Of a DNA stretch of 64,000 nt, positions 3,321 to 55,866 are shown in pieces. Position 1 is the stretch's first letter, and each line of letters starts with the position of its first letter. A model generated the notes under the pieces. It made no database searches and was not told the DNA's origin. It saw only the letters and a program-made list of their open reading frames with translations. A program made the position numbers and the translations under genes. This DNA comes from Squalus acanthias (Eukaryota), in the NCBI GenBank assembly GCA_030390025.1, contig CM059432.1, positions 95,668,001 to 95,732,000 on the forward strand. Reading direction: 5' to 3'.

Positions 3321-4306
3321 CTATATTCAAGACAGAGATCGATAGATTTTTGAATATTAAGGGAATCAAAGGGATATGGGAATAGTGCAGGAAAGTGGAG
3401 ATGAGGTAGAAGGTCATCCATGATATTGAATGGCCTACTCCTGTTCCTATTTCTTATGTCCTTGTGTGCAACTTTGCTAGCAAGCCTATTATGTGGCACT
3501 TTATCAAATGCTTTTTGGAAATCAATATACACCACGTCAACCGCATTGCCCTCATCAACCCTCTCTGTTACCTCATCAAAAAAACTCAAATCAATTTAGT
3601 TAAACACGATTTGCCTTTAACAAATCCATGCTGGCTTTCCTTAATTAATCCACACTTTCCAAGTGACTGTTAATCTTGTCCCTGATTATCGTTTCTAAAA
3701 GCTTCCCCACTACCGAGGTTAAACTGACTGGCCTATAGTTGCTGGGTTTATCCTTGCACCCTTTTTTGGACAAAGGTGTAACATTTGCAATTCTCCAGTC
3801 CTCTGGCACCACCCCCATATCTAAACAGGATTGGAAGATTATGGCCAGTACCTCCGTGATTTCCTTCTTAAGCTCCCTCAGCATCCTAGGATGCATCCCA
3901 TCCGATCCTGGTGACTTATCAACTTTAAGTATAGGCAGCCTTTCTAGTACCTCCTCTATCAATTTTTATCTCATCCAGTATCTCCACTACCTCCTCTTTC
4001 ATTATGACTTTGGCAGCATGTTCTTCCTTGGTGAAGACAGATGCAAAGTACTCATTTAGTACCTCATCCATCTCCTCTGCCTCCATGCGTAGATCTTTTT
4101 GGTTCCTAATCGGCCCCACCCCTCCTCTTACTACCTGTTTATTATTTATATGCCTATTGAAGACTTTTGAATTCCCTTTTATGTTAGCTGCCAATCTATT
4201 CTCATACTCTCTCTTTGCCCCTCTTCTCCTCTTTTTCACTTCCCCTCTGAACTTGCTATATTCAGCCTGATTCTCAACTTGACATCTTTCATACGCACTC
4301 TTTTTC

Positions 4307-4733
4307 AGCTGTGGCTCAGCACACTCGCCTTTGAGTCAGAAGGTTGTGGGTTCAAGTCCCACTCCAGGGACTTGAGCACATAAAGCTAAGCTGACACTTC
4401 AGTGCAGTGCTGAGGGAGTGCTGCACTATCGGATGAGATGTTAAACCAAGGCCCCATCTACACTCTCAGGTGGACGTAAAAGATCCCATGGCACTATTTC
4501 GAAGAGTAGGAGAGTTATCCCCGGTGTCCTGGCCAATATTTATCCCTCAACCAATATAACAAAAACAGATTATCTGGTCATTATCACATTGCTGTTTGTG
4601 GGACCTTGCTGTCTGCAAATTGGCTGCCGCATTTCACACATTACAGCAGTGACTCCACTTCAAAAGTACTTCATTGGCTGTAAAGCGCTTTGAGATGTCC
4701 GGTGGTCGTGAAAGGCGCTATATAAATGCAAGT
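4307..4733 (+). mobile_element. tRNA-derived DeuSINE (SacSINE1-like)
   Basis: tRNA-like head (tggctcag..., gggttcaagtccc), Deu core gtggacgtaaaagatcccatggcactattt, tail aaaggcgctatataaatgcaagt. Confidence 0.88.
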
Positions 4734-4844
4734 CTGTCTTTCTCTGTCTTTCTCTGTCTTTCTCTGTCTTTCTCTGTCTTTCTCTGTCTTTCTCTGTCTT
4801 TCTCTGTCTTTCTCTGTCTTTCTCTGTCTTTCTCTGTCTTTCTC
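4733..4844 (+). repeat. (TCTTTCTCTG)n tandem repeat expanded from the SINE tail
   Basis: About 11 perfect copies of a 10-bp unit. Confidence 0.95.
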
Positions 4845-5415
4845 GTCATCCAGGGAGCTCTGGCTTTAGTTGCCCTGCCTTTACCCATCTTGGAATTGTA
4901 CCTCGACTGTATGCGAACCATCTCCTCTTTAAAGGCAGCCCATTGTTCAATTACAATTTTGCCTGCCAATCTTTGATTCCAAGTTACCCGGGTCAGATCT
5001 TTTCTCCAACCCACTGAAATTTACCTTCCTCCAATTAAATATTTTTACACTAGATTGCTCTTTGTTCTTTTCCATAGCTAATCTAAACCTTATGATACTG
5101 TGATCACTGTTCCCTAAATGTACCCCTACTGACACTTGCTCCACTTGACCCACCTCATTCCGCAGAACTAGATCCAGCAATGCCTCCTTCCTCGTTGGGA
5201 TGGAAACGTACTGATCAAGAAAGTTCTCCTGAACACACTTCAGAAATTCTTCACCCTCTCTGCCCTTTACACTATTACTATCCCAGTCTATATTAGGATA
5301 GTTGAAGTCCCCCATTATTACTACTCTATAGTTCTTGCACCTCTCTAATTTCCCTGCAAATTTGCTCCTCTATATCTTCCTAGTTGGTGGCCTTTAGAAT
5401 ACACCTAGTAGTGTA

Positions 5416-6416
5416 TTCCTTCCTTCCCCCTCTCCCTCTTTCCCCCTCTCCCTCTTTCCCCCTTTCCCTCTTTCCCCCTCTCCCTCTTTCCCCCTCTCCC
5501 TCTTTCCCCTTCTCCCTCTTTCCCCTTCTCCCTCTTTCCCCCTCTCCCTCTTTCCCCCTCTCCCTCTTTCCCCCCTCTCCCTCTTTCCCCCTCTCCCTCT
5601 TTCCCCCTCTCCCTCTTTCCCCCTCTCCCTCTTTCCCCCTCTCCCTCTTTCCCCCTCTCCCTCTTTCCCCCTCTCCCTCTTTCCCCCTCTCCCTCTTTCC
5701 CCCTCTCCCTCTTTCCCCCTCTCCCTCTTTCCCCCTCTCCCTCTCTTTCCCCCTCTCCCTCTTTCCCCCTCTCCCTCTTTCCCCCTCTCCCTCTTTCCCC
5801 CTCTCCCTCTCTTTCCCCCTCTCCCTCTCTTTCCCCCTCTCCCTCTCTTTCCCCCTCTCCCTCTCTTTCCCCCTCTCCCTCTCTTTCCCCCTCTCCCTCT
5901 CTTTCCCCCTCTCCCTCTCTTTCCCCCTCTCCCTCTCTTTCCCCCTCTCCCTCTCTTTCCCCCTCTCCCTCTCTTTCCCCCTCTCCCTCTCTTTCCCCCT
6001 CTCCCTCTCTTTCCCCCTCTCCCTCTCTTTCCCCCTCTCTCCCTCTTTCCCCCTCTCTCCCTCTTTCCCCCTCTCCCTCTCTTTCCCCCTCTCACCCTCT
6101 TTCCCCCTCTCCCTCTCTTTCCCCCTCTCCCTCTCTTTCCCCCTCTCCCCCTCTTTCCCCCTCTCTCCCTCTTTCCCCCTCTCCCTCTCTTTCCCCCTCT
6201 CCCTCTCTTTCCCCCTCTCCCCCTCTTTCCCCCTCTCTCCCTCTTTCCCCCTCTCCCTCTCTTTCCCCCTCTCACCCTCTTTCCCCCTCTCCCTCTCTTT
6301 CCCCCTCTCCCTCTCTTTCCCCCTTTCCCCCTCTCTCCCTCTTTCCCCCTCTCCCCTCTTTCCCCCTCTCCCCCTCTTTCCCCCTCTCTCCCCTCTTTCC
6401 CCCTCTCTCTCTTCCC
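5416..6416 (+). repeat. About 1-kb polypyrimidine/polypurine minisatellite (15-18 bp units such as CCCCCTCTCCCTCTCTTT)
   Basis: Almost purely C/T on the + strand; produces the low-complexity ORFs in the track. Confidence 0.97.
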
Positions 6417-7147
6417 ATTTCACATTTGATGTTCAAAAGTTTAAATGTTTCTATTGCAGGGTGGCAATGATAGAGGAGAATTTTGCATTTCGGTCCAACC
6501 ACTTCTGAAATTCCTCAAGCCATTCTGTGAGATTCATGCTTTTCTATTTGCGAAGCTAGATGCTAGAATTTATTGCGTCCAGGTTTTTGAAGCAGCTTGC
6601 CCTTGCATTTTTACAAAGAAATCCAAGTCTTCCTTGCTTTTCTTCCTGTCTTTGTACTATTGCCTCTAGAAGGCTAGTCTTTTATTTGGAAGTGTCTGAT
6701 GTAGTCCGCCAGTTTTGAAAATATTGAAGATACCATGGCCTAGAAATTCGGGGGATTAGCGGCGGCCGTTAAGACTTGATTCGATGAAAAAAAATGGCAA
6801 TCACCATACTTCCGCCCGATGCCGACGGATCCCATGGGGGGCGGCAGCAATGCCGATGTCTGCGCTCGCTATCATTTTGGAGATTATGCAGATCATGATG
6901 TCAGTGAATGTGAAATGCTTACTTTGCGCCCGATCTACCATTTTGGAGTGCTGGCCTGTCTTAATTGCGACCAGCTGAGCAAGCGTTAAGGCTCCAGCAG
7001 TGATATTTAAAGGGATCATCAGCAACAACTTGCAGCTGACATGTTTGTTCAGTTTGACTGGCTCTGTGGAACTTTCTGCAAATCTAGCAGCTTTATAAAC
7101 TTCTTTCAAGGTCCTAAGGTGACGGGGAGTATTGGGGCAAATGAAGA

Positions 7148-8260
7148 ATGGCTTCATTCTTACTTGAAGGCTTCTGCTCAGAACACTTGCTCACAGTCAT
7201 GAGGTTCTACTGGCAGTCCCCCTCACGCTCGAGTATCTTTGGGGGAGGGAGCGGAGGCAGCAAAGAAGAGAATAAGATGCGCACAGAAGGAGGAGGAGGG
7301 CTCTCAATAGGAAGCCATACTGACCTAGGGTCTTCAGAGAGCACTTCTCCTATATCCACTTAAGTGAGGAGCAGTGTATTAGGAGGCTCCATTTCAGCAA
7401 GGAGGTGGTCACGCAACTCTACCACCTCCTGCAGCCTCGGAGGAGGGCGACCACAGCTCTCCCAGTGGCCCTCAATTTCTTCTCCAGCAGATCCTTCCAG
7501 TCTGCAGAAGGAGACATAGCTAACATATCCCAGTTCGCTGTCCATCGCTGCATTTGGGAGGTCACGAAGGCTCTCTACACCAGGAGAAGGGACTACGTTT
7601 TTTTCTTCTCTGAGCAGAGAGAAGCAGGACGAGTGCACATGTGACTTTGCCAGGTTAGCAGGCTTCCCCATGGTGCAGGGTGCCATCGGCTGTACCCGTG
7701 TCGCTTTGCAGGTGCCGCATAACAATCCTGAGATCTTCCGTAACCCGCAAAGGCTACCACTCACTTAATGTGCAGTTGTTGTGCGACCAAGCCCAGCGCA
7801 CTCTGATGGTCAATGCCCGCTATCCTGGCAGTGGTCATGATGCCGTCTTCCTGCGTCCAGCAATTTTTCAGCCACAACGTCAAACCTGAGGGTGGCTGCT
7901 TGGAGACGAGGGCTATCCACTCTGCACCTGGCTGATAACTCCCCCCAACATTCATGCCCAACACTCATATAACGAGAACCATGTTGCCACCAGGAACATC
8001 ATCGAGCAGACCATCGAGCTCCTGAAGCAACGGTTCCGCAGCCTTGACTGTTGGGGGGAGCCCTCCAGGACAATGGGTGTCCCATTTTGTGTTGGTCTGC
8101 TGCATACTTCATAACTTGGTCATGAGGACGCAGCCCTGGCCAGCAGGGATTGTGGGACCACCTGAGGAAGAGGATGAGGAGGAAGGGAGGGAGGCAAACA
8201 GCAAATCCCCCCCCCTTAGGCACGGACTGTCCGTGAACACCTCCTCAGACTCTTGAGTCG
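7148..8260 (+). pseudogene. Harbinger DDE transposase (HARBI1-like), frameshifted
   Basis: ALPVALNFFSSRSFQ, ISQFAVHRCI, GFPMVQGAIGCT (first Asp lost), [42 protein letters not shown]. Confidence 0.9.
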
Positions 8261-8425
8261 AGTGAATGAAACCCCAGATCCCCGTTGCTCACCACATCCT
8301 CATCATACCGTCCCTCTAGCACGGAATATCATAGCATCCTCCTGGGCACAAAGCTGAAATGAGAGCCACCACAAAACAGAGATTCCAAACAAAATGAATA
8401 CATTTATCAATAATCAAATACTATA

Positions 8426-10310
8426 TCAACTAATCACCCTTGTGCAATCCTGTAGTGCCTGTCGTTCGAGTGCCCTTTCCTGCTCTAGTGTTCCTAAGAA
8501 GTCCTCACCCAGTGGCTTCAGCATAGATAGTGGAAGGCTGCTGCGTTTCCATGGGGGAGACTTCAGATGGCCTTGCAGGATGACCTCGAGCAGCTCTGGA
8601 CCTAGAAGGCCCGGCTGTAGTCTGTAACACCTTGGCATTGGCAGCAGCAGTTTGGGCTGGCTGGCTGACGAGCAGTGGCAAGGGCAATGGCGGAGTGGCA
8701 GTTGTGTGAGTAGGAATACTGTCATCCTGAGAGGACAGCAGGTTCCTGCTCCACTGACCCACTCCCCCGGGGCGTCACTTCTGCATTCTTTTGCAATCTG
8801 TCGGAGGACAGATTGTTGGCCTGCTGCGACACCATGCCAGCCATGATGGCAGCAGTCTGATCTTGACTGGCAGCAAACTGAGACTGCAGGCCAGCTGTCT
8901 GCACTGACGTTGTCGCTTCTGCCTGCGTTGCAAATTCAGCCGCGACATCACTCATCACACGCAGTATCATGTCTGGGTCAACACAGTCTCTCCTGGAGTT
9001 TTCCATCATTTCCAGCCTGCAAATCATGGGCTCCAAGCTCTGTACAGAGCCCCGTGCAATGTTGAAGGCGGACTCCTCCAAGCTCCTTGACATTGCCAAG
9101 AGGCTCTCTGGCAAGCTTGCCATTGCACCTAGCAATTCGGTGTGCATGCCCATCACCCTTCTTCTGAAGGCCTCATCTGAGTCATGTGCAGCAGAACTCG
9201 CACGCAAAATCTCCCTCTGGGGAGTTGGCCCCCGAGCTACCCTATCCCTCTGGCCTTGCTGCAGCCCACTCATGCCCGGTGCTTCACCCTGTGCAGATTC
9301 CGCATCTACACTATCCTCTAAATTACACGCAGTGTCAGTTTCTGTGCTGGTGTCTGCGAGTGTCATCTTCTCTTCCCCCCCGCCCCCCTCGCTCTCCTCC
9401 ATCGTCTCGGGGTCAGGCTGTGCGGCTGCTTGTTCTTGGTTATCTGAAAGCAGAAAGGCACAAGGGTCATGTTGTGGTGAGCGAAGGTGGCGGGGGGAGA
9501 ACAAGAAATGCATGCGTACAGCATCCGCTTGTAAATGAGAAGAGACTGTGGGATGAGGGGCGAAGTGGGATGTGAAAAGAAGGATTAGGAATAAGCTTAC
9601 CGTTATTGCCGCAAGAGCTTCAACTTCACCCGTTGCCACGGCATCGGTGACTTCCTGTCAAATGATGTCAAGCACACTCTCCTCCAGTTGGCTCAAGGCC
9701 TGGATTGCGGCTGGCCGCCTTCCAAACCCCCCCACCCCAGGCTTGTCTGCCGCTGCTCCTGGCGACTGTGCGTGACCTTAGCCTGTAAGAGGAAGGGAAG
9801 TGTGTGTGAGAGTGCGGTGCAATGTGTTTGGGTGATGTGCCTGCCATAGCTGAATAGCTGTCAGTGTGCAAGATATGAGATTGTGGGTGAGAGTCTTGCA
9901 GTAGTGGTAAGGTTGTGAAGGTGAAGTGAAGCAATGATTGTGAGGTATGAGTGGTGATAGGTAGAGATTGTTGGTATGTGACTGATGGGGGTGTGGTGCA
10001 TTGAGTAGTGCGAGAGGCTTATGGTGCAGATGGTGGGATATGGCATTTGCTGAAGAGTTCACTCACCTTGACCAGCTGTGTGAGGTCATTTAAATTTCTT
10101 ACAGCATTGGATCCAGGACCTGGGGATCACGCTGTTGGCCGTCACGTAAGCAGAGATCTCCTGCCAGAGCCTTCTACACGTATGGGCCGATGGCTTCCTA
10201 CCGGTTTGCGGGAAGAGGACAGCCGCCTCCTCTCCACGGCCACCACCAGTGACTGCAGAGCCGCATCTGAGAACCGTGTTGCTCTCTCCCTCTGCTGCTG
10301 CTCAGCCATC
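8426..10310 (-). pseudogene. Harbinger Myb/SANT-like DNA-binding partner gene, spliced, decayed
   Basis: MAEQQQRERATRFSDAALQSLVVAVERRR; minus-strand donors near 10066 and 9599, acceptors near 9783 and 9444; long acidic low-complexity last exon. Confidence 0.75.
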
Positions 10311-10654
10311 TCTTGATAAATCGGTTCTGCTTCCAAGTGGCGCTCCAAATGGAATGACAATAAGGTGCTGCTGCATCAATGCACCTCCCCTTTAAGTAGT
10401 GGATAAAGCCTAGGCCAAACATGACTTGCAATTAGACTGCATAGGAACAGGATTCGACCATTCAGACCCTTGATCCTGTTCCGCCATTCAATGAGATCAT
10501 GGCTGATCTGCGACCTAACTCCATATACCCACCTTTGGCCCATATCCCTTAATACCTTTGGTTAACAAGCTATCAATCTCCGATTTAAAATTAATAATTG
10601 ATCTAGCATCAATTGTCATTTGCGGAAGAGAGTTCCAAACTTCTACCACTCTTT

Positions 10655-11269
10655 GGGGGAAAAATTGGGTGGCATCCCTTTTGGGACGCTAACGTTGCCG
10701 GGGCACTAATTTCAGTGCCTCGAAAAAGGTAGCACCCCTCCATCGGAAATTCATTAATAGCGCCCCAAGCAGGAGGTGGAGTGCTACTGAAAGCACTCCC
10801 TCCTTCTTGGGGCGGTACAACTGAAGATATCGGCGCTACGTGCAACAGCGCCACGCACATCGGCAAGTAGTGCCGCATCATTGCAGGCCTCCTCCCCTGA
10901 TTAAAGAGGAGGGGCCCTGCTAGACCGGCACCCCGAGGGAAAAAAGGGAAAGGGGGCAGGTGCTGGCAGTTGGCCAAAAAAAAATGGCCACCACTGCAAA
11001 AACGCCCCGATACTGTCGGACATATCGTCCGGTGATAGGTCAGGGGGCACAAGCGAAGTTTGCGGCCGGGGCACAAGCGGGACACTGCGCACGACAATGA
11101 TGTCATCGCCAGTGCCGCAGGGCGCTACCGGCTACTGTCGCCGCTAACCTCCCGCTGAATTTCGCGGGAGGTGTTAGCGGCGCTGCGCCCGGGCACTAGG
11201 AGATTTGCGCCCCATTAGTGCCCCCCTGGGGTGCTAACGAGAGGCGCAAATCAACCCAATTTTTCCCCC
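10655..11269. mobile_element. GC-rich Harbinger-type MITE, family A
   Basis: Perfect 16-bp TIR GGGGGAAAAATTGGGT, TTT duplication, interrupts CR1; similar to 34241-34964. Confidence 0.9.
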
Positions 11270-12088
11270 TTTATGTGTAGAAGTGTTTCCTAATTTCACT
11301 CCTGAAAGGTCTGGCTCTAATTTTTAAATGTCCCCTAGTCCTAGAATCCCCAACCAGCGGAAATAGTTTCTCTCTACCTTATCTGTTCATCTTAATATCT
11401 TGAAAACTTCGATCAGATCACCCTTTAACCTTCTAAATTCTAGGGAATACAACCCTAATTTGTGTAATCTCTCCTCGTAACTTAATCCTTGAAGTCCGGG
11501 TATCATTCTGGTAAACCTACGCTGCACTCCCTCCAAGGCCAATATATCCTTCCTAAGGTGTGGTGCCCAGAACTGCTTACAGTACTCCAGGTGTGGTCTA
11601 ACCAGGGTTTTGTATAGCTGCAGCATAACTTCTACCCTCTTATATTCTAGTCCTCTAGCTACAAAGGCCAGCATTCAAGTAGCCTTTTTGATTATGTTCT
11701 GTACCTGTTCATGACAGTTTAATGATCTCTGTACCTGGACCCCCAAGTCTCTTTGGACCTCCACTGTTTTAGCTTTTCACCATTTAGAGAATACCCTGTT
11801 CTATCCTTTTTCGGTCCAAAGTGGATGACCTCACATTTGCCTACATTGAAATCCATTTGCCACAGTTTTGCCTATTTACTTAATCTGTCAATATCTCTTT
11901 GTAATTTTATGCTTTCATCTACACTGCCTACAGTGCCGCCTATCTTTGTGTCATCGGCAAATTTGTATATGTGACTTTCTATGCCATCATCTAAGTAGTT
12001 AATAAATACTGTGAATAGTTGAGGCCCCAACACAGATCCCTGCGGGACACACCTAGTCACATCCTACCAATTTGAGTACGTACCCATT

Positions 12089-12685
12089 GGGCTGGATTTT
12101 GATACTGGGGCGGGCTAGGGGTCGTGTTATCCACCCGACTGCAATTGGATGTGGGAGATTGATGCGATTTTCACCTAATTGGGCAGTTGAGTTCCAGCAT
12201 GTGGGAACCCATGACCCAATTAGTGTTTTCAGTCTGAAAGTCGCCTCTGATGATGTCATTGCTGCTGCATTGAAGGTCTGCAAAGACTGCCTGGCCTTTG
12301 CTGTGAGAGGACCTGGAGGCAAAATGAGCAGCAGCCCTAAGTCTGCTCCCAGAAACAACAACAACACCGCCGCCACCTCCTCATAGTGGGCCTGCAGCTG
12401 ATAGTCAGCAATCCAAATGTGCTACCACCAGCTTTCACATTCGTGATTCAGAACAGGCATGCTTCATGTGGAAAAAGGGTTAAAATCACAAAGGCCTTTC
12501 AAAATGGCATTATAGAGGCAAATTAGTGCTCGTTAGGGGCCTTAACGGCCTATCCCAACTCTTGGAGGCGGGGCCAGCAGACATGTTTTAATGAAAATTG
12601 CATGGAGGCGGGCTTGTGCCCGCCCGCCAGTTTTCGCAATTTTAACCCCCCCACTGGCCTCCACGGGTCAATGAAAATTCTGCCC
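12089..12685. mobile_element. Harbinger-type MITE
   Basis: Imperfect TIR GGGCTGGATTTT/AAAATTCTGCCC, ATT duplication, interrupts CR1 RT. Confidence 0.85.
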
Positions 12686-13430
12686 ATTATCCCTACTGCC
12701 TGTCTCCTGCCGCTCAGCCAATTTCCTAACCAGATAAATAATTTGCCCTCAATTTCGTGGGCTTCTACCTTGGATAACAGTCTCTTATGTGGGACTTTAT
12801 CAAATGCTTTCTGGAAGTCCATATAAATAACATCCATAGACCTTCCCCTGTCCACTACTTTAGTCACCTCTTCAAAAAATTCAATCAGGTTTGTCAGGCA
12901 TGACCAATCTTTCACAAATCCATGCTGGCGCTCTCTGATCAACTGAAAATTTTCGAGGTGTTCAGTCACCTTAATTATCCTTAATTATAGACTCTAGCAA
13001 TTTCCTGACAACAGATGTTAGGCTAACTGGTCTATAACTCCCTAGTTTCCCTCTCTTGCCATTCTTAAATAGCTGAATGACATGCGCAATTTTCCAATCT
13101 AAAGGAACGGTTCCTGAATCGAGAGAACTTTGGAAGATCATAGTTAGGGCATCTGCAATGTACTCACCTACTTCCTTCAAAACTTTGGGATGGAAACCAT
13201 CTGGTCCTGGAGATTTGTCATTGCACCTGATATTGGCGCACTTGTTGAGCGGTAAGCCAATGAGCAGTGGTTTTAGCGCTGAGATCAGCACTATAATCAT
13301 GTAATGAGCACTCAACACGAATTTTGCATGCTACCTCGACCACTTTGACCCAGCACAGCTAAATAGCACTGGCCATGACACCGCCCGTTTTCGGGCCATA
13401 TCCAATTTCTAGGCCCATATATTGCTTCTG

Positions 13431-14603
13431 CTTTCAGAAGGCTTTCGATAAGGTCCCGCATAAGAGATTAGCGTGTAAAGTTAAGGCACATGGGATTGGG
13501 GGCAAGGTACTGACTTGGATAGAGAACTGGTTGGCAGACAGGAAGCAAAGAGTTGGAATAAACGGGTCTTTTTCCGAGTGGCAGGCAGTGACTAGTGGGG
13601 TTCCGCAGGGATCGGTCCTAGGACCCCAGCTATTCACTATACATATTAATGATCTAGACGAGGGAACTAGATGTAATATCTCCAAGTTTGCAGATGAGAC
13701 AAAGCTGGGTGGGCGTGTGTGCTGCGAGGAGGATGCCGAGAAACTCCAGTATGATTTGGGCAGAAACATGGCAGATGCAGTATAATGTGGATAAATGCGA
13801 GGTTATCCATTTTGGTGGCAAAAACAGGAAGACAGATTATTATCTGAACGGGAATAGATTGGGAAACAGGGAAGTGCAACGAGACCTGGGTGTCCTTGTG
13901 CACCAGTCGCTGAAGGTAAGCATGCAGGTACAGCAGGCGGTTAAGAAGGCAAATGGTATTTTGGCCTTCGTAGCGAGAGGGTTTGAGTACAGGAACAAGG
14001 ATGTCTTGCTGCAGCTGTACAGGTCCTTGGTGAGACCACATCTTGAGTATTGTGTGCAGTTTTGGTCGCCTTATCTGAGGAAGGATGTTCTTGCCATGGA
14101 GGGTGTGCAGCGAAGATTCACCATACTGATACCTGGGATGGCAGGAATGACGTACGAGGAGAGATTGGGTCGATTGGACTTATACTCGCTGGAGTTTAGA
14201 AGAATGAGAGGAGATCTCATTGAAACTTATAAAATTCTAACAGGGCTAGACAGACTGGATGCAGGAAGGATGTTCCCGATGGCGGGTGAGTCCAGAACAA
14301 GAGGTCACAGTCTAAAGATAAGGGGTAAGCCATTTAGGGCAGAGATGAGGAGGAATTTCTTCACCCAGAGAGTGGTGAACCTGTGGAATTCTCTACCACA
14401 GAAGGCAGTTGAGGCCAAGTCAGTAAATATATTCAAGAATGAGTTAGATATATTTCTTAAGGCTAAAGGGATCAAGGGATATGGGGAGAAGGCAGGGACA
14501 GGGTACTGAGTTTGGATGATCAGCCATGATCTCATCGACTGGGGCGGAGCAGTCTCGAGGGGCCGAATGGCCTACTCCTGCTCCTATCTTCTATGTTTCT
14601 ATG
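13431..14603 (+). mobile_element. Young 5'-truncated CR1 LINE (RT C-terminal half and 3' tail)
   Basis: FQKAFDKVPH, GVPQGSVLGP, 273-aa ORF ending GYGEKAGTGY; tail ctatgtttctatg. Confidence 0.95.
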
Positions 14604-16381
14604 CTGTCTCAGCTGCATCTGAAATCTTACCTTTCACTGAATGCAGCAATGATGCATTTCTTTAAAGAAATAAACAGCTGTTAGATGCTTAGAATTCAGG
14701 TGTTTCCTACTTGTTGAGCCTGGGCCTTTTCTTGCATTAGTTGCCTTGACAACAGAATTATTGTTTTACCTTGAGTTGGAAACCTTTCTACACCAGTACT
14801 TTAAGGTCTTCCTTGTCTGTATGTCAAGGCTTTGAATTATTTTCCATGTTTTCAACAAACTGAACAAATCCTTATTCTTGTACATCATTTGCTGGAACAT
14901 AATCTTGTCTTTCTACATTATCTGCTAGATTTGTGTCTGCCCAAATTTTAACTGCTGCACAGGTTTGCGACTACGCATTTCCTCATCCATAAATTTGATA
15001 ATGTGAGTGGCTGACTTGATAATAAACACAAATGTTGAAAATAACAACAGGTTGCATTTGACAAGAGGAAAGATAACATAGAAACATAGAAGATAGGAGC
15101 AGGAGCAGGCCATTCAGCCCCTCGAGCCTGCTCCGCCATTCAATGAGATCATGGCTGATCATCCAAATTCAGTACCCTGTCCCTGCCTTCTCTCCATATC
15201 CCTTGATCCCTTTAGCTTTAAGAAATATATCTAACTCCTTCTTGAATATATTTAATGAATTGGCCTCTACTGCCTTCTGTGGTAGAGAATTCCACAGGTT
15301 CACCACTCTCTGGGTGAAGAAATTCCTCCTCATCTCAGTCCTAAATGGCTTACCCCTTATCCTTAGACTGTGACTCCTGGTTCTGGACTCCCCCGCCATC
15401 GGGAACATCCTTCCTGCATCTAGTCTGTCTAGTCCTGTTAGAATTTTATAAGTTTCAATGAGATCCCCTCTCATTCTTCTAAACTCCAGCGAGTATAAGC
15501 CCAATCGACCCAATCTCTCCTCATATGTCATTCCTGCCATCCCAGGTATCAGCCTGGTGAATCTTCGCTGCACTCCCTCCATGGCAAGAACATCCTTCCT
15601 CAGATAAGGCAACCAAAACTGCACACAATACTCAAGGTGTGTACTCGAACCCTTTCGCTACGAAGGCCAACATACCATTTGCCTTCTTAACCGCCTGCTG
15701 CACCTGCATGCTTACCTTCAGCGACTGGTGCACAAGTACACCCAGGTCTCGTTGCACTTCCCCTTCTCCCAATCTATTGCCATTCAGATAATAATCTGCC
15801 TTCCTGTTTTTTACACCAAAGTGGATAACCTCACATTTATCCACATTATATTGCATCTGCCTTGCTTCTGCCCAATCACCCAACCTGTCCAAATCATACT
15901 GGAGTTTCTCGGCATCCTCCTCACGGCACACACTCCCACCCAGCTTTGTGTTGTCTGCAAACTTGGAGATATTACATCCAATTCCCTTGTCTAGATCATT
16001 AATATATATTGTGAATAGCTGGGGTCCTAGGACCGATCCCTGCGGTACCCCACTAGTCACTGCCTGCCACTCGGAAAAAGACCCATTTATTCCAAGTCTT
16101 TGCTTTCTGTCTGCCGACCAGTTCTCTATCCAAGTCAATACCTTGCCCCCAATCTCATATGCCTTAACTTTACACGCTAATCTCTTATGTGGGACCTTAT
16201 CGAAAGCCTTCTGAAAGTCCAAATACGCCACATCCACTGGTTCTCCTTTATCTATTTTACCAGTTACATCCTCAAAAAATTCCAGTAGATTAGTCAAGCA
16301 TGATTTACCTTTTGTAAATCCATGTTGACTTTGTCCGATCCTGTCACTGTTTTCCAAGTGCTCTGCTGTTACATCTTTTAT

Positions 16382-16416
16382 GTTCTGATGAAAGGTCATC
16401 GACCTGAAACGTTAAC
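16382..16416 (+). ncRNA. Minimal type I hammerhead ribozyme motif
   Basis: GUU-CUGAUGA-A-AGGUC-auc-GACCU-GAAAC-GUU-AAC. Confidence 0.75.
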
Positions 16417-16478
16417 TCTCTTTCTCTCTCCACGGATGCTGCCTGGCCTGCTGAGTTTTTCCAGCGTTTTCTGTTATT
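16382..16478 (+). mobile_element. Solo Penelope-type terminal-repeat module carrying a hammerhead motif
   Basis: 97-bp insert in CR1 flanked by a 13-bp direct repeat TTACATCTTTTAT; matches repeats at 24051, 30879 and 62576. Confidence 0.85.
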
Positions 16479-18804
16479 TTACATCTTTTATAATGGACTC
16501 TAGCATTTTCCCCACTACCGATGTCAGGCTTATAATTCCCCGTTTTCTCTCTACCACCTTTTTTGAATAGTGGGGTAATATTAGCTACCCTCCAATCCAT
16601 GGGTACTGTTCCAGAGTCTATAGAATTTTGGAAGATGACCAGCAATGCATCTACTATTTCTAGGGCCACTTCCTTAAGTGTACCCTAGGATATAGATTAT
16701 CAGCCCCTGGGGATTTATCGGCCTTCAATCCCGTCAATTTCCCTAACACTATTTCCTACAAATACTGATTTCTTTCAGTTCCTCCCTCTCATTAGACCCT
16801 ATGTTCCCCGACATCTCTGGGAGGTTATTTGTGTCCTCCTTTGTGAAGGCAGAACCAAAGTATGTATTTAATTGGTCTGCCATTTCTTTATTCCCCATTA
16901 TAAATTCCCCTGATTCTGACTGCAAGGGACCTACGCTTGACTTCACCAATCTTTTTCTCTTCACATATCTATAAAAGCTTTTACAGTCAGTTTTTATGTT
17001 CCCTGCAAGCTTACTCTCATACTCTATTTTCCCCCTCTTAATTAATCCTTTTGTCCTTCTTTGCTGAATCCTATACTGCTCCCAATCCTCAGGTTTTCTG
17101 CTTTTTCTGGCCAATTTTTATGTTCTCTCCTTGGATCTTATGCTATCCCTAATTTCCTTTGTTAGCCACGGTTGAGTCACCTTTTGTTTTATTTTTATGC
17201 CAAACTGGGATGAACAAATTCTGTAGTTCATTCATGCGATCTTTGAATGTTTGCCATTGCCTATCCACCGTCAACCCTTTGAGTGACATTCCCCAATCAA
17301 TCCTACCCAACTCGCGCCTCCTACCATCGTAGTTTCCTGTATTCGTGTTTTGGGTGTAGAATTTGATAGACTTTAGCTTTTTTGCTAAATAAATATCAAG
17401 CAGGACGGTACTCCTGCCTCCCATGAAAGTAGCCATTTTCAAAGTGAGTGAGTTTAACAGATTGAAACTTCAAATTCCTGCCCAGTTGCTTCATGACCTA
17501 TTTCATATGATGACCACAGGACTGTTGTGTCACTCCAGCTAACCTGGATAACAGTTGTGCAAGCTGGGTTAGAGCTGGCTATCACGAAGGGGGAGGACCA
17601 AAAAACAGTCTGTTATAGGGATCATTTCAGATGCATTAGAGTCCCTTAAACATTTTGATATAAATCTCCCAAATAAATTTGTTTAGGACGTCAGATGTCC
17701 AAACTTCTTGTGCGATGTTGATGCTCATCTAGTAGTTCCTGCAGTGGTTGGCTACATTATACTGTAGTTTTGTAATGTACATTCGTCTTCATTTGGCATC
17801 TCTTACACACTCTAGGAATTTAGCCAGGCTTCATGGTCTGTGTAAATATTCTCCTAAATTTTGATTTGATCAAACTGGGCAGAATTGTACATGCCCTTCT
17901 GATAATGTGTTGCATAAAGCCCCAGACCCTGCTCAATAGGACCAGTTCATTTACTCCCGGCTTTGTCAAGTGCTGTGTTCCCAGCATTGAATTTTCCCAG
18001 CTTCTCGAGTCAGGCTCTGCAGAGAGTGTGTATTTTAGGCATATATCTGTTTTAGTTGTTTTAATGTGGGATTTTTTCAGCCTTTGAGCTTCTCACACAG
18101 ATACTTGCCAGGGCTCATTTGAATAAGCAATAAGCTAGAGTAGACTGAACAACCCTTATTGAGGGAAACATTTCCCTTCTCATCGCAGAGAACAACCAAG
18201 TTTTTGTACAAATTGTGACAATTGCTCAGCTCTCTGACAGTCATTGAGTGAACAAAACATTTTAGGGATGTATAAATATCTGAAATACCAGTGCAGATTG
18301 TGTGTGTGTTGGGGCGGGGGTGGGCGAATAGGAAGCTTCTTCCAACAAAAAATTCAGCTGCTTCTGTTTGTGGTTCCCCAAATAAAATAGCACTTGGACC
18401 TTGACTCGGGGAAAATAAAATAAAAACCTAAGAATTCAAACAGCACAACCATTTAAACGTGCACAACCATTTAAACGTACACAGACCCAGGAACAGATAA
18501 TGTGGAGGGAAATAATCAAGTTGACTTCAGTTATGAGATGAGGATTGATCTCCAATATACATGTGCTGATCCAGTACAGACTTGTAATCACAGGAAGTTG
18601 AAGCAAGAGTGGTAAATTACCACTCCAACTGCTACCAAAAGCTTCATGTTATTAAAAAGTGCAAGTCTAAACTCTATTGCAGATCAACATAAAAATGATT
18701 TAAATAGTGTTTCTCCAATATATGATCCAGCTGCCTGCCTTGGACTTCCAAGCCAAAGACCCTAGCTGTAATTAACAGAATAGTGACATAAAGCCTTCAA
18801 AAAA

Positions 18805-19490
18805 TTCCAGAGGTGAGGTGAGAGTGACAGCCCTTGACATCATGGCAGCATTTGACCGAGTGTGGCATCAAGGAGCCCCAGTAAAACTGAAGTTAATGGA
18901 AATCGGGGGGAAAACTCTCCTCTGGCTGTAGTCATACCAAGCACAAAGGAAGACGGTTGTGGTTGTTGGAAGCCAATCATCTCAGCCCCAGGACATCGCT
19001 GCAGTTGTTCCCCAGGGCAGTGTCCTAGACCCAACCATGTTCAGCTGCTTCATCAATGACCTTCCCTCCATCATAAGGTCAGAAGTGGGGATGTTCGCTG
19101 ATAACTGCAGTGTTCAGTGCTATTCACAACTGGTATGGCACAGATAATGAAGCAGTCCATGCCCGCATGCAACAAGACCTGGACGACGTTCAGGCTTGGG
19201 CTGATAAGTGGCAGGTAACATTCGCGCCACACAAGTGGCATGGGAACACCACCACCTCCAAGATCCCCTCCAAGTCACACACCATCCTGACTTGGAAATA
19301 TATCGGTGTTCCTTCATCGTCGCAGGGTCAACATCCTGGAACTCCCTCCCTCACAGCACTGTGGGAGTACCTTCACCACACGGACTGCAGCGGTTCAAGA
19401 AGGCGGCTCACCACCACCTTCTCAAGGGCAACTAGGGATGGGCAATAAATGCTGGCCTTGCCAGCGACGCCCACATCCCATAAACACATT
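18805..19490 (+). mobile_element. Non-LTR retrotransposon 3' fragment (CR1/L2 group) with internal deletion
   Basis: AAFDRVWH, VPQGSVLDP, MFADN, WNSLP motifs; tail gggcaataaatgctggccttgccagcgacgcc. Confidence 0.8.
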
Positions 19491-19994
19491 TTTTTTAAAA
19501 AGCAGTTCAAGAAAACGGGTCATTCGCTGCAGGGTTCTACTGACTATGACGCACTCTAGGAGATGGAGCCAAGGAGAGACAGGTAACTGTCAATCTAGAA
19601 TGCCAAATGTAATAGACCACCTCCGACAGCATCTCGCAGGTAGAGAGGGACAAATTACCAGTCCTGGGGCTATTGCAACCAAGCAAATTTGGGCAACAAG
19701 AATTAGACTCTTGTAGCTTTTTAGCACGCAAATCCAACCTCCCAAGGGGATCAGCACACTGTCCTTTCTGCTACCCCCCAGCTGTGTGAAACAAAAATCC
19801 AAATGATCAATAGGCAACGTCCAAGAAGTCACCACATATAAAATGAAATGCTCTCCTGATTCCAGGATGCTGTTCAGTACTTTTAATCAGTTTAGCTTCT
19901 ATGGCTTTTTCCTTCACTGCAGACAGTGGACTGTCTAGAGGCTCTTGGAAATGAATTAATGCCATTAGTCTGACTATTAATCTAGGTTCACATT

Positions 19995-20245
19995 TCAGTG
20001 CAGTCGCATTGTCGGAGGTGCTATCTTTCAGATGAAGTGTGAAACTGAGGTCCTGCCTACCTGTTTATTTCCTATAAGAGCAGGGAGTTCTCCGAGTATC
20101 CCAGCCAACATTCATCTTTTAACTGCTGCCACCAAAAGAAAGAGTATTTATTTATTTCAGTTGCTGTTTCTGGGACCTTTTGCTGTGTGCAAATTAGCTG
20201 CTGAATTTGCCTGCAAAACAAGACTGATTGCACTTCAAAAATAGC
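19995..20245 (+). mobile_element. Degenerate DeuSINE fragment
   Basis: gtcggaggtgctatctttcagatg..., agagcagggagttctcc, ttgctgtgtgcaaatt. Confidence 0.7.
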
Positions 20246-21199
20246 ATCACAGTACTGACTATAGAAACCAGCCTGCCAGCTTCTAACATAGTAGAGAAGA
20301 CCTCCTCAAGGGGCAGAGGAACATGATAACTGATATACAGGACAACAGCATGGTAGAAATCAATTCTAAATTCAGAGACACTTAATTAACTGCCAAAATC
20401 ACAAACTTCTTCCAAACTTCACTGGCCACAGAGCCAGAGTTTCTTCCGTGAATATTTCTTGCCACCAATTGAAGATCAGATGCATATACATTGGACCTCA
20501 GCAGCCAAGATTATGTTGCATGGCATCCTGTGCATTGTAGCCTTATCCAGGGAACCAAAGTATCAGTTTTTTAATTTACACTTTGTTTTTGGAGGTTAAG
20601 TGAAGGTTAGTTAGAGAACTTCAAGGTATATAATTACAGAAACCTCTTGTGATGGGAACCATAGCATTCAAGTAAAACAGCCTTATTGGGGCCACCTTCC
20701 CTACAACTGATGATAGCGATGGCTGCTACTTTGTCAGGCAGGGCAGCACACCTTTGAGAGATATGGGCCACAGGCAGGTGAAAGAAGGAACCGTCCATGT
20801 GGCACATCCATTATTTTCAGTTTCAGGTGCAACAGTGCATTCAGTCAATTAATCCAAGGCAGGGTATTGTGCATTTGGAAGATAATACCACAGTATCCAA
20901 CCAACAGGAGAGATGGGGAAGAGACTATTCTTGTGTTATCTGCACTTCAACTGGCACATTAGCATCTATCTCACAGGGGGAAGAGACTATTTTGTCTGTT
21001 CATTATGTATTAAAATCATAAGCCAGTTTATAAAGAAGGGGTTTATGATTTTGTTGCATATAGCACATGGTGGAGTGTTCCCCCAACATATTTCTCTTGA
21101 CTCAGCATCTAGTCAGCATTGGACAGCATGACAGACATTTTATTGCATTACAGTTCATCTGTACGCATGGACGATCCACACACAGCTAGTACAGGAGAT

Positions 21200-21430
21200 T
21201 TTTGAGGTATGGGATGATCCCATTTTTACTAAACTGCTGACCACCCAACTTTCCTTCCTGGCTTCCATGCCAGCTGACATTGTAAATGGTTCCTTCCCCT
21301 CAGGTACTGTCCACGTTCCTTTCAAAACAGCCGTCATCATCCTCCTCAAAAACCCCCACCCATGATCATTCTGTCCTTGCATACTAGTGCCCCATCTCCA
21401 ACCTCCCTTTTCTTACCAAAATCTGTGAAC
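21200..21430 (+). mobile_element. L2 LINE RT fragment
   Basis: TKLLTTQL..ADIVNGSFPSGTVHVPFKTAVI, followed by PISNLPFL. Confidence 0.7.
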
Positions 21431-22465
21431 GTGATGCCCTTCCCGCGGTACTGCCTTTTGCACATCCTTTGGTGTCTTATTTTATGCAGTATTTCTTAAA
21501 ACTGCGCTCCGATCCCTTGGTTCCAAATTAGCAACATCAATGTAGTTCTTAAACTATCTGAGGTTCTTCGAAATTGCAATTTGAAGTTTTTTACATGGAA
21601 AGCAACACACTGCTAGTGTGAGAGTTGTTTCATATAATTAGTGAACTACAGGCTTTAGTTGTACATTATTTGCTTTGGTGTAAAAATTGAGTTGTTACAG
21701 GGTTAGGAAGAGAGAATGGAGCATCGGGATTAGTTTCGGATTGCTCTGACAAAGTCGGCACAGATGTGACTGGCCAAATGGCCTCCTGTGCTGTAACTCT
21801 CTCTGGTTTTTAGGCCCTCCTCAGGGTTGCTTTTGAAGTTGTTTCCCAGAAAATGACTGTTCACTCATTTCATCCGCCGCCCATTTTCAGAAGTGGATCG
21901 TAGATTTCGCTATCTGCACGCTCTCGTGTTGGGATGGGTCTCAATTCTTATGTTTACTAAATTCATGAGTTTAGAAACATTGAGCAGCTAATTGCTTCTA
22001 TGGCAAAAAAAACCCATAGCAAATTATTTACTTAGTAGCGGGTGGAGTTCCTCAACAGGAGCCGTGCTCCTAGATTTTTGCACTGCTTGGGTAACTTTCC
22101 TGCAGTATGTAAACGATGACTAATGGAAAATAAAAGTTAGATTTACCTACTTTGCAGGGTTGTCTTTATTCTTTAAATGATAGGCAAGTCTTTCTTTCAA
22201 TCATACATCACAATACCTCCCAACCATCTTTTCAGACCCTATTGGGTTCTGTTTCTTGCCTTGTTAGGAACTTTATTGTGAAGACAGTTTAGGTCAAATT
22301 CAGGTTTTATACAGAGCATGAGTGGGAAGTCATGTATGACTGTCCAGCATGATGGGACAAGAAAAATTAGTTTTGGCATAAAGCTTGCATAAGTTCCTAT
22401 AGCTTATGAAGTATGCCTGTTGTTTGGTAAAGAAAACAATGTGGGTAATCCATTTTTGATATCAA

Positions 22466-24659
22466 GACCTAGAAATTTAAGTAGGCCGGAAACCTGCCGG
22501 TGCCACTGCGGACCGCCCGCAAAAAGAGCGCAGGTGGCGCCGGTATTTTGGTGCTGCTTTACATTAACGCAGTGCAAAACCTGCAGTGCAACGTGCTGTT
22601 TTGGGCGGTAGTCTCAGCCAGAGGCCCAGTGCAGTGTCCCTGGAGCGAGGCAGCGTTCACTTAAAGCTAACCTGGCGTTTTGGAAAGAGTGCCTTCTGAA
22701 ATGAAAAAAATAAAAATCATTTAAAAATAGGCAGTCTTTAGCCCTTAGAGCTAAACTGCCTTCTGGAAAAAAAATAAACATTGCAAATATTTCCAAAATG
22801 CCGGTCTTCAGCTCTTAAAGCTTAACTGCCTACTGCACGTAAAAAAATGGGAAAAGTGCTTCAGCTCCAACACACAAGGCTCAACAAGCCAGGGAAGATG
22901 CACCCAGCGTCTTGCATGCAGCACTCCAGCTTTGTGAAGAGGGTCAACACTGCAAGAGAGGTCCTCTACCCACAGGGGCCAGGAGGCCCTCCAGAAAGCA
23001 GGGCGTGGGACCAAATCACCGAGGCCGTCACTGCCAGCAGTGTTGCCCCCACGACCAGGCTCCAGTGCCCAAAGAAGCTTCATGACCTCAGACCAGTGGT
23101 CAGGGTCAGTGAATGCAACTTCAAAAGCCTTCTCCTACCAACTGCACCACTAGCCTCACACACTGCTTATTGCATGACCCCCCCCCCCCCCCTCCCCTTC
23201 AATCACTCTCCTACCAACAATCTGTACCAAACACGAGGCACACCTCCCATCCCTAGCTTCACCTCACCCCCTTGGAGGGGACCGTGCTGCCATTCTTGGC
23301 AGGGGCATAGCTGAGCCCTTGGCCAGCGGCAGGGTTGAAGGGATACAAGATGCTGGTATCCTCATACGTTATCCTCCGCCTCACATCCTACTTACCCCAT
23401 ATCCCACAATATCTTCTGATTTACAAGATGTGCATGGTGTAATCATGCACCTCTTGCTTTCTCACCCTCCCCTCACCACAACTCTACCCTTGTGCCTTCC
23501 TTATTTCACACACCCAAGAAATCCAGCCTGCCCAGCCAGTGGTTGACCATGAAGAGGGAGAGGAGAGTGAAGAAGAAGAAACGCCATCACTCGATTTGAC
23601 ACTCCCAGCCACCAGCTCCTCGAGGTCGTCCTGCAAGGCCATCTGCAGTGTTCCCCACTGAAAGTCAGCAGCCTTCCACCAGCTATGCTGTAGACGCTGG
23701 GGTAGCACTGTGTAACATCACTAGGATAGGCAAAGGCACACACACAAGACAGTCACTAAGAGAATGCATAAGGGTGATTAGTTGATTTCTTGATGTCTTA
23801 TTGGATGGATGGATGTATAAAGTTGGATTGGAAAGTTTGCTTTGTGGTGGCTTTTATTTCAGCATTGTGGCCAAGGGGACACTATGATGGTCAATAATAG
23901 AGGGAAGGTAAGGTGTGGGACAAATATTGAAAGGGGAATTGGGGTTGTGGTCACTGGTACCACAGGCAGATGATTCCAGCCTGGGCAGAAAGGGGCTTGT
24001 CTGGGTTGCATCCTTCCGATTCCTGCGTCTTCCTCTTCTCTCTGTGAGTGGATGCTGGAAATCTGAAATAAAAGCAGAAAATGCCGGAAATACTCAGCAG
24101 GTCAGGCAGCATCTCGACCTGAGACGTTAACTCTGTTTCTCTCTCCACGGATGTTGCCTGACCTGCTCAGTATTTGCAGCATTTTTGTCTTCTCAGAGGC
24201 TTTCCTTTAACATCCGAAGCCTTGCAAGCGTCCAGCAGCACTCCCTGCACACTTTTAACATCTACTGCACCAAGCCACTACTTCAATAAAATATTTGTTA
24301 AAAAGTCCAATAGCTTAAATCAAAACTTACCTGAAAGATGTGTGTGTCCCTTTAAGAAGCGCTGACAGCGTCTCTGCAGGGCTGCTTTGCACATGCTTTT
24401 TTGTGCATGCTTTAGGACCCAGCGTAATGATGATCGAAAATGTCCAAGTTAGCATTTGTGCCATCAAGTCAGGCATTGCACGCCGATTGACGTCACGAGC
24501 TGCTAATTTACATTTCAGAGGCCAGCGCCGTCAACGGCAGCGCTATGGCCCTAACAAAATGGCGGCCACTGTGTCCCGTGCCAGAAGTGACAGGCCACCA
24601 TTTTTTTCCAAGAAAATCAGTGTTAACAGCCAGCGCTAAGGAAAGCAATTTCTAGGCCC
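22466..24659 (-). mobile_element. Internally deleted Harbinger element (Myb/SANT remnant on +, transposase almost wholly lost)
   Basis: Ends gacctagaaatt / aatttctaggccc; REVLYP...AWDQITEAVTASSVAPTTRLQCPKKLHDL trihelix remnant at 22900-23105. Confidence 0.75.
24051..24190. mobile_element. Penelope-type inverted terminal-repeat pair with central deletion
   Basis: gatgctggaaatctgaaataaaa...gcagcatct, then its reverse complement; only the 3' half of the hammerhead remains. Confidence 0.8.
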
Positions 24660-26050
24660 TATTGTTTAATATATCTACTTTTATGTGAAAATTCAAAGTA
24701 ACTTTGTCAAAATTGAATTTTTTTAAATCCGAAGTGAATTAGTTTTATCTTGGCCTTTTTCTTTATGGCTCACAAATGAAGGAATCCAGCAGATTAGTTG
24801 AATAGTCTGTTGTGATTCATTGCATACTTTGCAAAATGGCTAGTCATTATACAAGTATCTCATTGTAGATATAATGGTCCTTAACGAGAGTCACTGTTAC
24901 TGATTCCCCCAAATTCCTGAAGTTTAATATTTCAGTACAGATAACCAGCACGACAATGGAGCTCTTATGTAGGACTTTGCTGAATGTTACAGCTAATGAT
25001 TCTGTAGACACTGGGGCAAAGGCCATTAGTAAGTCTGGACTTCTGAGCCAACCTGTCAATTGCATTTGTCAAAAGAACCTAAACCTCTCTTGGCTCCTGT
25101 TGTTTTATTTTTAATTTTCTTTTGATACTTTTCTATTTTTATGCTGTTCAATTTTGGAATTTTTGGAAATGTTATGTCTTCACATCAGTATAATTGGAGC
25201 AGATGAATTAAACTGATAAACAATGAAGGAATCCATTTAAACTCTTGACTAGGTTTTACTGGCTGTAGAGGTTAAACGTGTTGTAGCTTGAAAAGTTCCA
25301 AAGTATTGTCAAGTGTAGCTACAGAATATCTTACAAATTAATGGCAGAATATTTCTGAATACTCGGTCTTCTATTAACACTGAAACTCTAATCTGAGTTA
25401 TTTCATTTTAAAATCTGACTGCATGCTATCTTCATTAAACTGTCTGCAGGATTCTGTGCTTCATGGCTCTCGACCATTTCAATTTAAAAGTCGACTGGAC
25501 TTTAGCATCAGAAAACACTGCAGACTGAGCAATTATTTTTAATTGAACAATCACACTTGGAACAAAATGTATTTTTTTAAATTAATAAATAAAAGTGATC
25601 TTACTGTACCAAATGTAACCAAGAAACATCTGAGAGGCTGCCCAGCTTAAGTACTATAGAAAAGGGAGAAAAAAAGGTTAAATCTTGCTAGTCAGTTATT
25701 TAACCCCAGTTCTTAATTTAAAAAAACTAATTTATCGGCATGAATCTTGCACAGGTTTTTGAAGAGTTGCAGTCTGTAGCTCCTTTTTTAAATGTTAGTG
25801 TGCATTCTTGAACATTCACTCCAGATTAGAGTAAGGACGTGCACCAAATTTGCATTTGTCATGACATGCCACGCGCCTAGACAGGCACATATTTTCTACA
25901 CTACTCTACTACTTGTAGACCAATTGGAGTTCAGTGCTGAATTAGGATAATCAAAAATTCACATTTGACATTCAGATAAGGGGACTGCAAGACCTGTTTT
26001 ATTTTAAATAATTCCTGAATATTTTGAGTGTGTCCTGTGTTAATCTATAA

Positions 26051-55866
<29,816 letters not shown>

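What the first reader, a model, noticed from the sequence alone, without database searches (positions are those of the whole stretch)
16369..16491. Solo 97-bp hammerhead-ribozyme module inserted with a 13-bp target-site duplication
Seen: a 97-bp insert (16382-16478) splits a young CR1 and is flanked by TTACATCTTTTAT on both sides. It begins exactly at the 5' strand of hammerhead helix I: GUU-CUGAUGA-A-[AGGUC auc GACCU]-GAAAC-GUU^AAC, with predicted cleavage after 16413. Known: Penelope-like elements carry minimal type I hammerheads with a loopless palindromic helix III that work as dimers. Inference: this is a very small non-autonomous ribozyme-bearing retroelement, mobilised in trans later than the CR1. 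It lies sense to the RBBP8 pre-mRNA if that intron extends this far.
Basis: partly seen in the sequence, partly recalled or inferred. Interest (0 to 1): 0.8.

Follow-up and report, generated by a model that had tools for sequence, protein, structure and literature searches.

The report
Penelope retrotransposon stub, hammerhead stop site
This 97-base insert is the broken-off end of a very abundant Penelope-like retrotransposon, not an element of its own, but about a quarter of its young copies break off at this same ribozyme edge, which likely marks where one class of the element's RNA begins.

Summary
Observation confirmed: 97-bp insert, exact 13-bp duplication (empty sites found), minimal hammerhead, sense in an RBBP8 intron. 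It is not a separate mini-element. It is the 3'-terminal stub of an autonomous Penelope-like element (intact 3.2-kb copy: 971-aa RT + GIY-YIG ORF, Neptune/Nematis-type linker), with thousands of exact copies of every length. 3' ends fall at two fixed sites (+100, +135), the known 'tail' signature. Only 1 of 97 ends near the predicted cleavage site. Stubs carry the same variants as long copies, so they are made repeatedly from the parent. Likely cause: RT running off an RNA 5' end at an initiator-like motif; a roadblock is the rival. Cleavage untested and probably weak. Solo truncated hammerheads are in print; this pile-up was not found in seven searches. The scan noted similar shark Penelope stubs in two other genomes.

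The parts
16369..16381 (+). 5' copy of 13-bp target-site duplication (CR1 sequence)
16382..16478 (+). 3'-terminal 97 bp of the pseudo-LTR of an autonomous Penelope-like element (element positions +1 to +97; equals L090 1453-1549 and 4652-4748)
16382..16416 (+). minimal type I hammerhead motif: helix I 16382-16384/16414-16416, core 16385-16391 and 16406-16409, extra A 16392, helix II 16393-16397/16401-16405, palindromic CG 16410-16411, predicted cut after 16413
   Evidence: sequence; activity not tested
16388..16478 (+). first ~30 codons of the element's ORF frame (ATG at 16388 not conserved across variants; second in-frame ATG at 16436)
16474..16478 (+). 3' end at the first of two family-wide end sites (inferred internal RT start site, about +100)
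   Evidence: PMC11167929
16479..16491 (+). 3' copy of 13-bp target-site duplication
15169..17330 (-). host CR1-type LINE fragment with stops and frameshifts, split by the insert (ends approximate)
1..26064 (+). part of the ~30-kb RBBP8 (CtIP) intron that holds the insert; next exon 26065-26160
30742..30974 (.). head-to-head pair of older stubs of the same family, both ending at the hammerhead 5' edge, one with the tail

Best explanation
The insert is a 5'-truncated copy of an autonomous Penelope-like retrotransposon whose reverse transcriptase likely started inside the RNA about 100 nt downstream of the hammerhead and likely ran off the RNA's 5' end at the hammerhead's edge. Steps: (1) shown: the sequence is the end of the pLTR of an intact RT + GIY-YIG element; (2) shown: it landed in a CR1 with a staggered-cut duplication of typical length; (3) shown: 3' ends fall at two fixed sites, inferred from the Anolis element to be internal RT start sites; (4) shown: 5' ends pile up from +11 to -2 and then stop; (5) inferred, about 50%: a class of template RNA begins at about -1, at an initiator-like motif, so that starting at the first internal site gives a ~100 or ~135-nt 'strong-stop' cDNA, trimmed by microhomology joining; (6) inferred: the hammerhead is a passenger, its cleavage does not define the unit, and this lone copy would cleave the RBBP8 pre-mRNA poorly if at all.
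For: Intact element L090: two hammerheads 3,199 bp apart around a 971-aa ORF with RVT_1 (E 2.5e-5) and GIY-YIG (E 4e-4), both just under Pfam's cut-offs; 1,573 homologues at E<=1e-20. 5,627 exact hammerhead 32-mers and 17,601 exact downstream 37-mers, reversed controls 0. 3' ends: 59 of 97 at +93..+107, 35 of 97 at +132..+142. 5' ends, one young variant: 23 of 97 in +11..-2 (2.0%/nt) against 24 in the next 299 nt (0.13%/nt), ratio 15, p 3e-16; 10 ends in +2..-2 then 0 in the next 12 nt, p 2e-6. Other variants, sampled on a downstream anchor: 19 ends in +11..-3 against 6 in the next 57 nt, n 80, p 1e-7. Genome-wide nested counts 2,856 > 2,498 > 2,127 agree; 1,889 copies begin at +1 like this one. 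11 of 17 non-inverted stubs have a TSD of 8 nt or more. G precedes the A at -1 in 43 of the first 100 such copies (hand tally) against 8 of 52 at distant truncation points, Fisher p 6e-4, as a copied cap would give.
Against: No RNA 5'-end data: eight runs were contigs of guessed RNA and show no starts. All three full-length copies examined have 5' pLTRs of about 360 to 1,000 bp beyond the hammerhead, so long copies come from longer templates and a single start at -1 cannot explain everything. Of 13 G-at-minus-2 junctions read, 4 are explained by the target and 3 by an inverted copy; only 6 are unexplained, against 2 T and 2 A, so the cap signal is suggestive only. G excess before +1 starts is not significant against the control (p 0.14). 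In D. virilis the start site lies about 120 nt upstream, before an intron that ends at helix I. The same motif reads equally well as a 3' splice acceptor.
Confidence: 0.8

Rival explanations
1. Same parent element, but the pile-up is a roadblock or joining bias: RT is stopped at the hammerhead edge by a bound protein (the element's own, or factors on the polypyrimidine tract) or junctions prefer the local near-palindrome and helix I complementarity.
For: Ends rise gradually from +29 to -2; many junctions use microhomology and several inverted junctions use the near-palindrome or helix I; full-length copies pass through the site; the Anolis protein binds near and assists its hammerhead.
Against: A fold would stop RT at its 3' side (+36), where 1 of 97 ends lie; the drop after -2 is abrupt; 17 of 23 stubs are not inverted; G excess before -1.
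Confidence: 0.35
2. A separate SINE-like non-autonomous 97-135-bp element with its own master copies, mobilised in trans.
For: 1,889 copies start at +1 and 1,332 at -1 (5 of 30 of the latter are mutated long copies); many have TSDs.
Against: Stubs occur in at least four sub-variants that also have long copies; 18 of 20 stubs of one variant are identical to the full-length copy over +55..+92 and share no private change; 5' ends are spread over 13 nt and use both 3' sites in the same ratio as long copies (15:8 against 46:27); no shared upstream sequence among 60 stubs.
Confidence: 0.07
3. The boundary is a 3' splice site: spliced RNA is the template and homology ends where the intron was removed, as the D. 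virilis intron ends at helix I.
For: Pyrimidine tract plus AG immediately before +2 in all main variants, with a branch-point-like motif in older ones; precedent in PMC4209133.
Against: No common first exon upstream of 60 stubs: the TSD or an inverted copy abuts directly in most; no GT..AG joint onto this site listed in contigs of 8 runs (contigs cannot show absence); one variant has AA for AG.
Confidence: 0.1
4. Hammerhead self-cleavage releases the RNA that was inserted.
For: The motif is kept at tolerated positions.
Against: A cleavage product would begin at +33; 1 of 97 copies ends in +30..+36; in Anolis uncleaved RNA is the main substrate.
Confidence: 0.02

Closest known systems
Canonical EN+ Penelope-like elements, Neptune/Nematis type (PMC8557442; passages read)
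   Same: Single RT + C-terminal GIY-YIG ORF with DKG, CCHH-type and CX4CxxC linker motifs; pLTR partial tandems, inverted 5'-truncated copies, optional 30-40-bp tail, hammerhead in the pLTR, heavy 5' truncation.
   Different: A sharp pile-up of 5' ends at the hammerhead edge is not described in the passages read; targets here are mixed sequence with 8-16-bp TSDs rather than microsatellites. No tree was built, so Neptune against Nematis is not resolved.
PAc (Poseidon) of Anolis carolinensis (PMC11167929; main text read)
   Same: ORF begins in the hammerhead; two internal RT start sites give two 3' ends about 35 nt apart; cleavage not needed for insertion; both strands extended, fitting head-to-head pairs.
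   Different: Different clade by the linker motif; the paper maps RT starts, not 5' ends of genomic copies (supplementary figures not visible).
Minimal hammerheads of metazoan PLEs (PMC4209133; main text read)
   Same: Core, extra base before helix II, short helix I, palindromic pair in place of helix III; mostly single motifs 'probably related to truncated PLEs'.
   Different: First helix II pair is A-U (G-U in 15 of 270) instead of the usual G-C; this copy has GUU at the cut and a 3-bp helix I.
Animal non-LTR retrozymes (bioRxiv 10.64898/2026.07.22.740005; part 1 of 5 and passages read)
   Same: Non-coding, hammerhead-bearing, pLTR-derived.
   Different: Retrozymes are tandem arrays of at least two units; this is a lone stub with a TSD and no lineage of its own.

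Membership tests
EN+ Penelope-like element | Single ORF with RT and C-terminal GIY-YIG endonuclease | tested here: met
   L090 971 aa; RVT_1 E 2.5e-5, GIY-YIG E 4e-4, both under curated cut-off; homologues carry the same families
EN+ Penelope-like element | pLTR from partial tandem, including the ORF's first codons | tested here: met
   L090, L154, L174; insert aligns to both pLTRs
EN+ Penelope-like element | Optional 30-40-bp tail (two 3' ends) | tested here: met
   59 of 97 near +100, 35 of 97 near +135
EN+ Penelope-like element | Inverted 5'-truncated partner copies and variable TSDs | tested here: met
   33 TSDs of 8 nt or more, 32 of them 8-16 nt
Neptune/Nematis clades | CX2-5CxxC motif between RT and EN (absent in Penelope/Poseidon) | tested here: met
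   CX4CxxC in the L090 translation; criterion from PMC8557442
Neptune/Nematis clades | RT phylogeny with named references | not tested
   no Repbase references on hand
Minimal type I hammerhead | CUGANGA / GAAA / NUH core with helices I and II and palindromic 15.2-16.2 | tested here: met
   sequence
Minimal type I hammerhead | Compensatory changes in helices | tested here: inconclusive
   none within this family in 270 copies, only A-U to G-U; 7 of 9 pairs change on both sides against a second family, in 17 hand-picked rows pre-selected for helix II pairing
Minimal type I hammerhead | Match to an Rfam hammerhead model | tested here: not met
   no hammerhead family at E<=10; expected for a helix-III-less motif (inference)
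Minimal type I hammerhead | Self-cleavage, as dimer or with protein | not testable with these tools
   monomer MFE is an alternative fold (-7.3 against -5.5 kcal/mol)
Non-autonomous SINE-like element | Own lineage with fixed 5' end and private variants | tested here: not met
Non-LTR retrozyme | Tandem array of two or more hammerhead units | tested here: not met
   single unit between TSDs

The most novel reading that the evidence does not exclude
Penelope-like elements have a 'strong-stop' product: a capped RNA starts on the first base of hammerhead helix I, the protein begins reverse transcription at the first internal site ~100 or ~135 nt in, runs off the 5' end and inserts the stub. Thousands of genomic stubs would then map the element's start site and show that the hammerhead sits at the very 5' end of the message, uncut.
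Probability: 0.4. Interest if true: 0.6.

Novelty: new member of a known kind. Interest (0 to 1): 0.38.

Why it matters
As an object the insert is ordinary: one of thousands of truncated Penelope ends, and such solo hammerheads are in print. What adds value is the population pattern. The Penelope transposition cycle and the role of its hammerhead are open questions, and this genome holds a very young, very large family with intact copies whose insertion ends can be read at base resolution. The pile-up gives a direct, cheap prediction (an RNA start at -1) and argues that cleavage does not set the ends of inserted copies. It also warns annotators that ~100-bp 'SINE-like' hammerhead repeats in such genomes can be by-products of an autonomous element.

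Tried and rejected
Rfam scan: no hammerhead match. DNA search of the own genome with the insert returned nothing because common words are skipped. Folding z-scores give no support. Contigs of 8 runs guessed to be RNA, from 3 studies of unnamed related organisms, cover the region but cannot show starts, strand or level; no splice joint onto +2 was listed. Search for a shared first exon or shared flank among 60 stubs: none. Peak of 5' ends at the cleavage site: none. Within-family covariation: none. Gapless end-calling misplaces long copies, replaced by gapped calls (49, 87). My first guess of the Poseidon clade was dropped after seeing the linker motif. Text search of the PMC11167929 supplements found none of five terms; its figures are not held, and they may show 5' ends. 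Supplements of the bioRxiv preprint were not seen. Search for a paper on cap-derived G gave only listings; that link is recalled knowledge.

Full report
Numbering: +1 is the first base of the insert (window 16382); -1 is the base before it in the parent element.

1. Observation. The insert and its exact 13-nt flanking repeat are as described. The flanks are a CR1-type RT region on the minus strand. Two other CR1 copies among the fetched loci, 92-95% identical to the flanks, carry the site empty with a single copy of the repeat, so the duplication is real and the insert came later. RBBP8 exons lie on the + strand upstream of the window and at 26065-26160 (the two upstream exons were found with recalled motifs), so the insert is intronic and sense. 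The hammerhead core, helix II and palindromic CG are present; Rfam does not call it and the fold is not better than shuffles.

2. What it belongs to. The window holds four more pieces of the same sequence in two inverted pairs and one single. The genome holds 5,627 exact copies of the hammerhead 32-mer and 17,601 of a downstream 37-mer. Upstream of longer copies lies the end of a GIY-YIG frame. Locus L090 is a complete element: two hammerheads 3,199 bp apart around an open 971-aa frame with RT and GIY-YIG matches. The insert equals the last 97 bp of its pseudo-LTR, which are also the first ~30 codons of the frame. A CX4CxxC linker places it with Neptune/Nematis, not Penelope/Poseidon, by the criterion in PMC8557442; no tree was built. 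The closest named protein is from a shark (70% identity), so the host is inferred to be a cartilaginous fish.

3. The 3' end. Among 97 copies of one young variant (the first 100 listed; 3 dropped as identical in context to L090's upstream pLTR, all long), 59 end at +93..+107 and 35 at +132..+142. This is the 'tail' signature, which PMC11167929 traced to two internal RT start sites in the Anolis element. The insert ends at the first site.

4. The 5' end. In the same 97, 23 end between +11 and -2 (2.0% per base) against 24 in the next 299 bases (0.13% per base; ratio 15, p 3e-16); 10 end in +2..-2 and none in the next 12 bases (p 2e-6). A second sample anchored downstream (97 copies: the 100 listed, less 4 segmental duplicates not fetched, plus one neighbour) gives, for the 80 copies of other variants, 19 ends in +11..-3 against 6 in the next 57 bases (p 1e-7), and 1 of 97 near the predicted cut. 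Genome-wide nested counts fall 2,856, 2,498, 2,127 from +12 to +2 to -10 (no genome-wide control segment was run, so mutation is included). 1,889 copies begin at +1 and 1,332 at -1.

5. Not a separate element. The insert's first 94 nt occur unchanged in 29 fetched places, 15 of them long copies; the 60 stubs fall into at least four sub-variants; 18 of 20 stubs of one variant are identical to L090 over +55..+92 with no shared private change. Stubs and long copies use the two 3' sites alike. No upstream sequence is shared among stubs; junctions show TSDs with 1-4 nt microhomology, inverted partners or local filler. This insert is a blunt junction at +1.

6. Mechanism. Shown: parentage, TSD, two 3' sites, pile-up and cliff, no peak at the cut. 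Inferred: a cliff with a ramp on its 3' side is what a template end plus trimming gives. The sequence around -1 fits the initiator consensus YYANWYY with A at -1 (consensus recalled). G precedes that A in 43 of 100 listed copies (hand tally) against 8 of 52 at distant truncation points (p 6e-4), as a copied cap would give (recalled from LINE work), but only 6 of 13 such G read in context are unexplained by target or inverted copy. Against a single start at -1: the three full-length copies examined extend about 360-1,000 bp upstream, so longer or circular templates must also be used. A roadblock and a splice acceptor remain rivals. RNA contigs could not decide.

7. The ribozyme. In 270 copies the common variants fall at tolerated places: N7, loop II, the cut base (U or C), and A-U to G-U in helix II; no double change (the scan seeds bias against changes in the core). 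A second hammerhead family in the same loci keeps the architecture with other letters: 7 of 9 pairs change on both sides in 17 selected rows, and its helix I covaries within the family. This copy has a 3-bp helix I, GUU at the cut, and a predicted alternative fold; the nearest complete sense partner is 14.5 kb away. PMC4209133 found no cleavage by a monomer and low cleavage by dimers; the Anolis motif needed the protein. An effect on RBBP8 is unlikely but untested.

8. Literature. Read: PMC11167929 and PMC4209133, parts 1-2 of 4 (main text); bioRxiv 10.64898/2026.07.22.740005, part 1 of 5 and passages; PMC3846280, passages and Discussion; PMC8557442, PMC2377424, PMC6155905, passages. Solo truncated hammerheads, inverted pairs, tails and TSDs are all in print. 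A pile-up of 5' ends at helix I was not found in searches or in what was read; Repbase and subscription journals were not searchable, and unseen supplementary figures may bear on this. Two earlier notes of this scan describe similar stubs in other shark genomes.

9. Verdict. Real, ordinary in kind, with one measurable and testable mechanistic feature. New member of a known kind; interest 0.38.

Noticed in passing
L034 1192-1554, L122 1279-1625, L145 1228-1589, L029/L104: Four insertions are circularly permuted mini-units: ORF +84..141 to +244..277 joined by microhomology to pLTR -74..-109 to +100/+136. Each stops within 22 nt of one full round from its own 3' end, each with a different joint, suggesting a ~320-390-nt circular or end-joined template.
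   Followed up: partly
L090 1726 to 1386: A joint of the same kind appears in contigs of 7 of 8 runs, two organisms; the identical joint suggests a fixed genomic deletion derivative.
   Followed up: no
window 56205-56241 (minus) and 11 places in fetched loci: A second hammerhead-bearing repeat family with different helices and a within-family compensatory change in helix I; its parent element was not sought.
   Followed up: partly
window 30742-30974, 24075-24185, 62611-62697: Older stubs of the same family: two head-to-head pairs and a single.
   Followed up: partly
L127, L170, L194, L195: Long head-to-head insertions whose two arms overlap by only a few bases or up to about a dozen, one arm with and one without the tail, as expected if both strands prime.
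   Followed up: no
L090, L154, L174, L074: Full-length or near full-length copies 98-99.8% identical; L090 has an open frame, so the family is probably still active.
   Followed up: partly
L009-L014 (G000:C1 6.99-7.13 Mb): Copies amplified with their flanks inside a tandem satellite, spaced about 1.7 and 3.3 kb.
   Followed up: no
window 5380-6500: About 1 kb of 18-bp purine/pyrimidine tandem repeat in the same RBBP8 intron.
   Followed up: no
window 8722-9657 and 60013-60848: Two related open frames of 150-310 aa of an unidentified repeat.
   Followed up: no
G000:C11:16.58-16.59 Mb: A second CtIP_N-matching gene, probably the RBBP8 N-terminal-like paralogue (name recalled).
   Followed up: no
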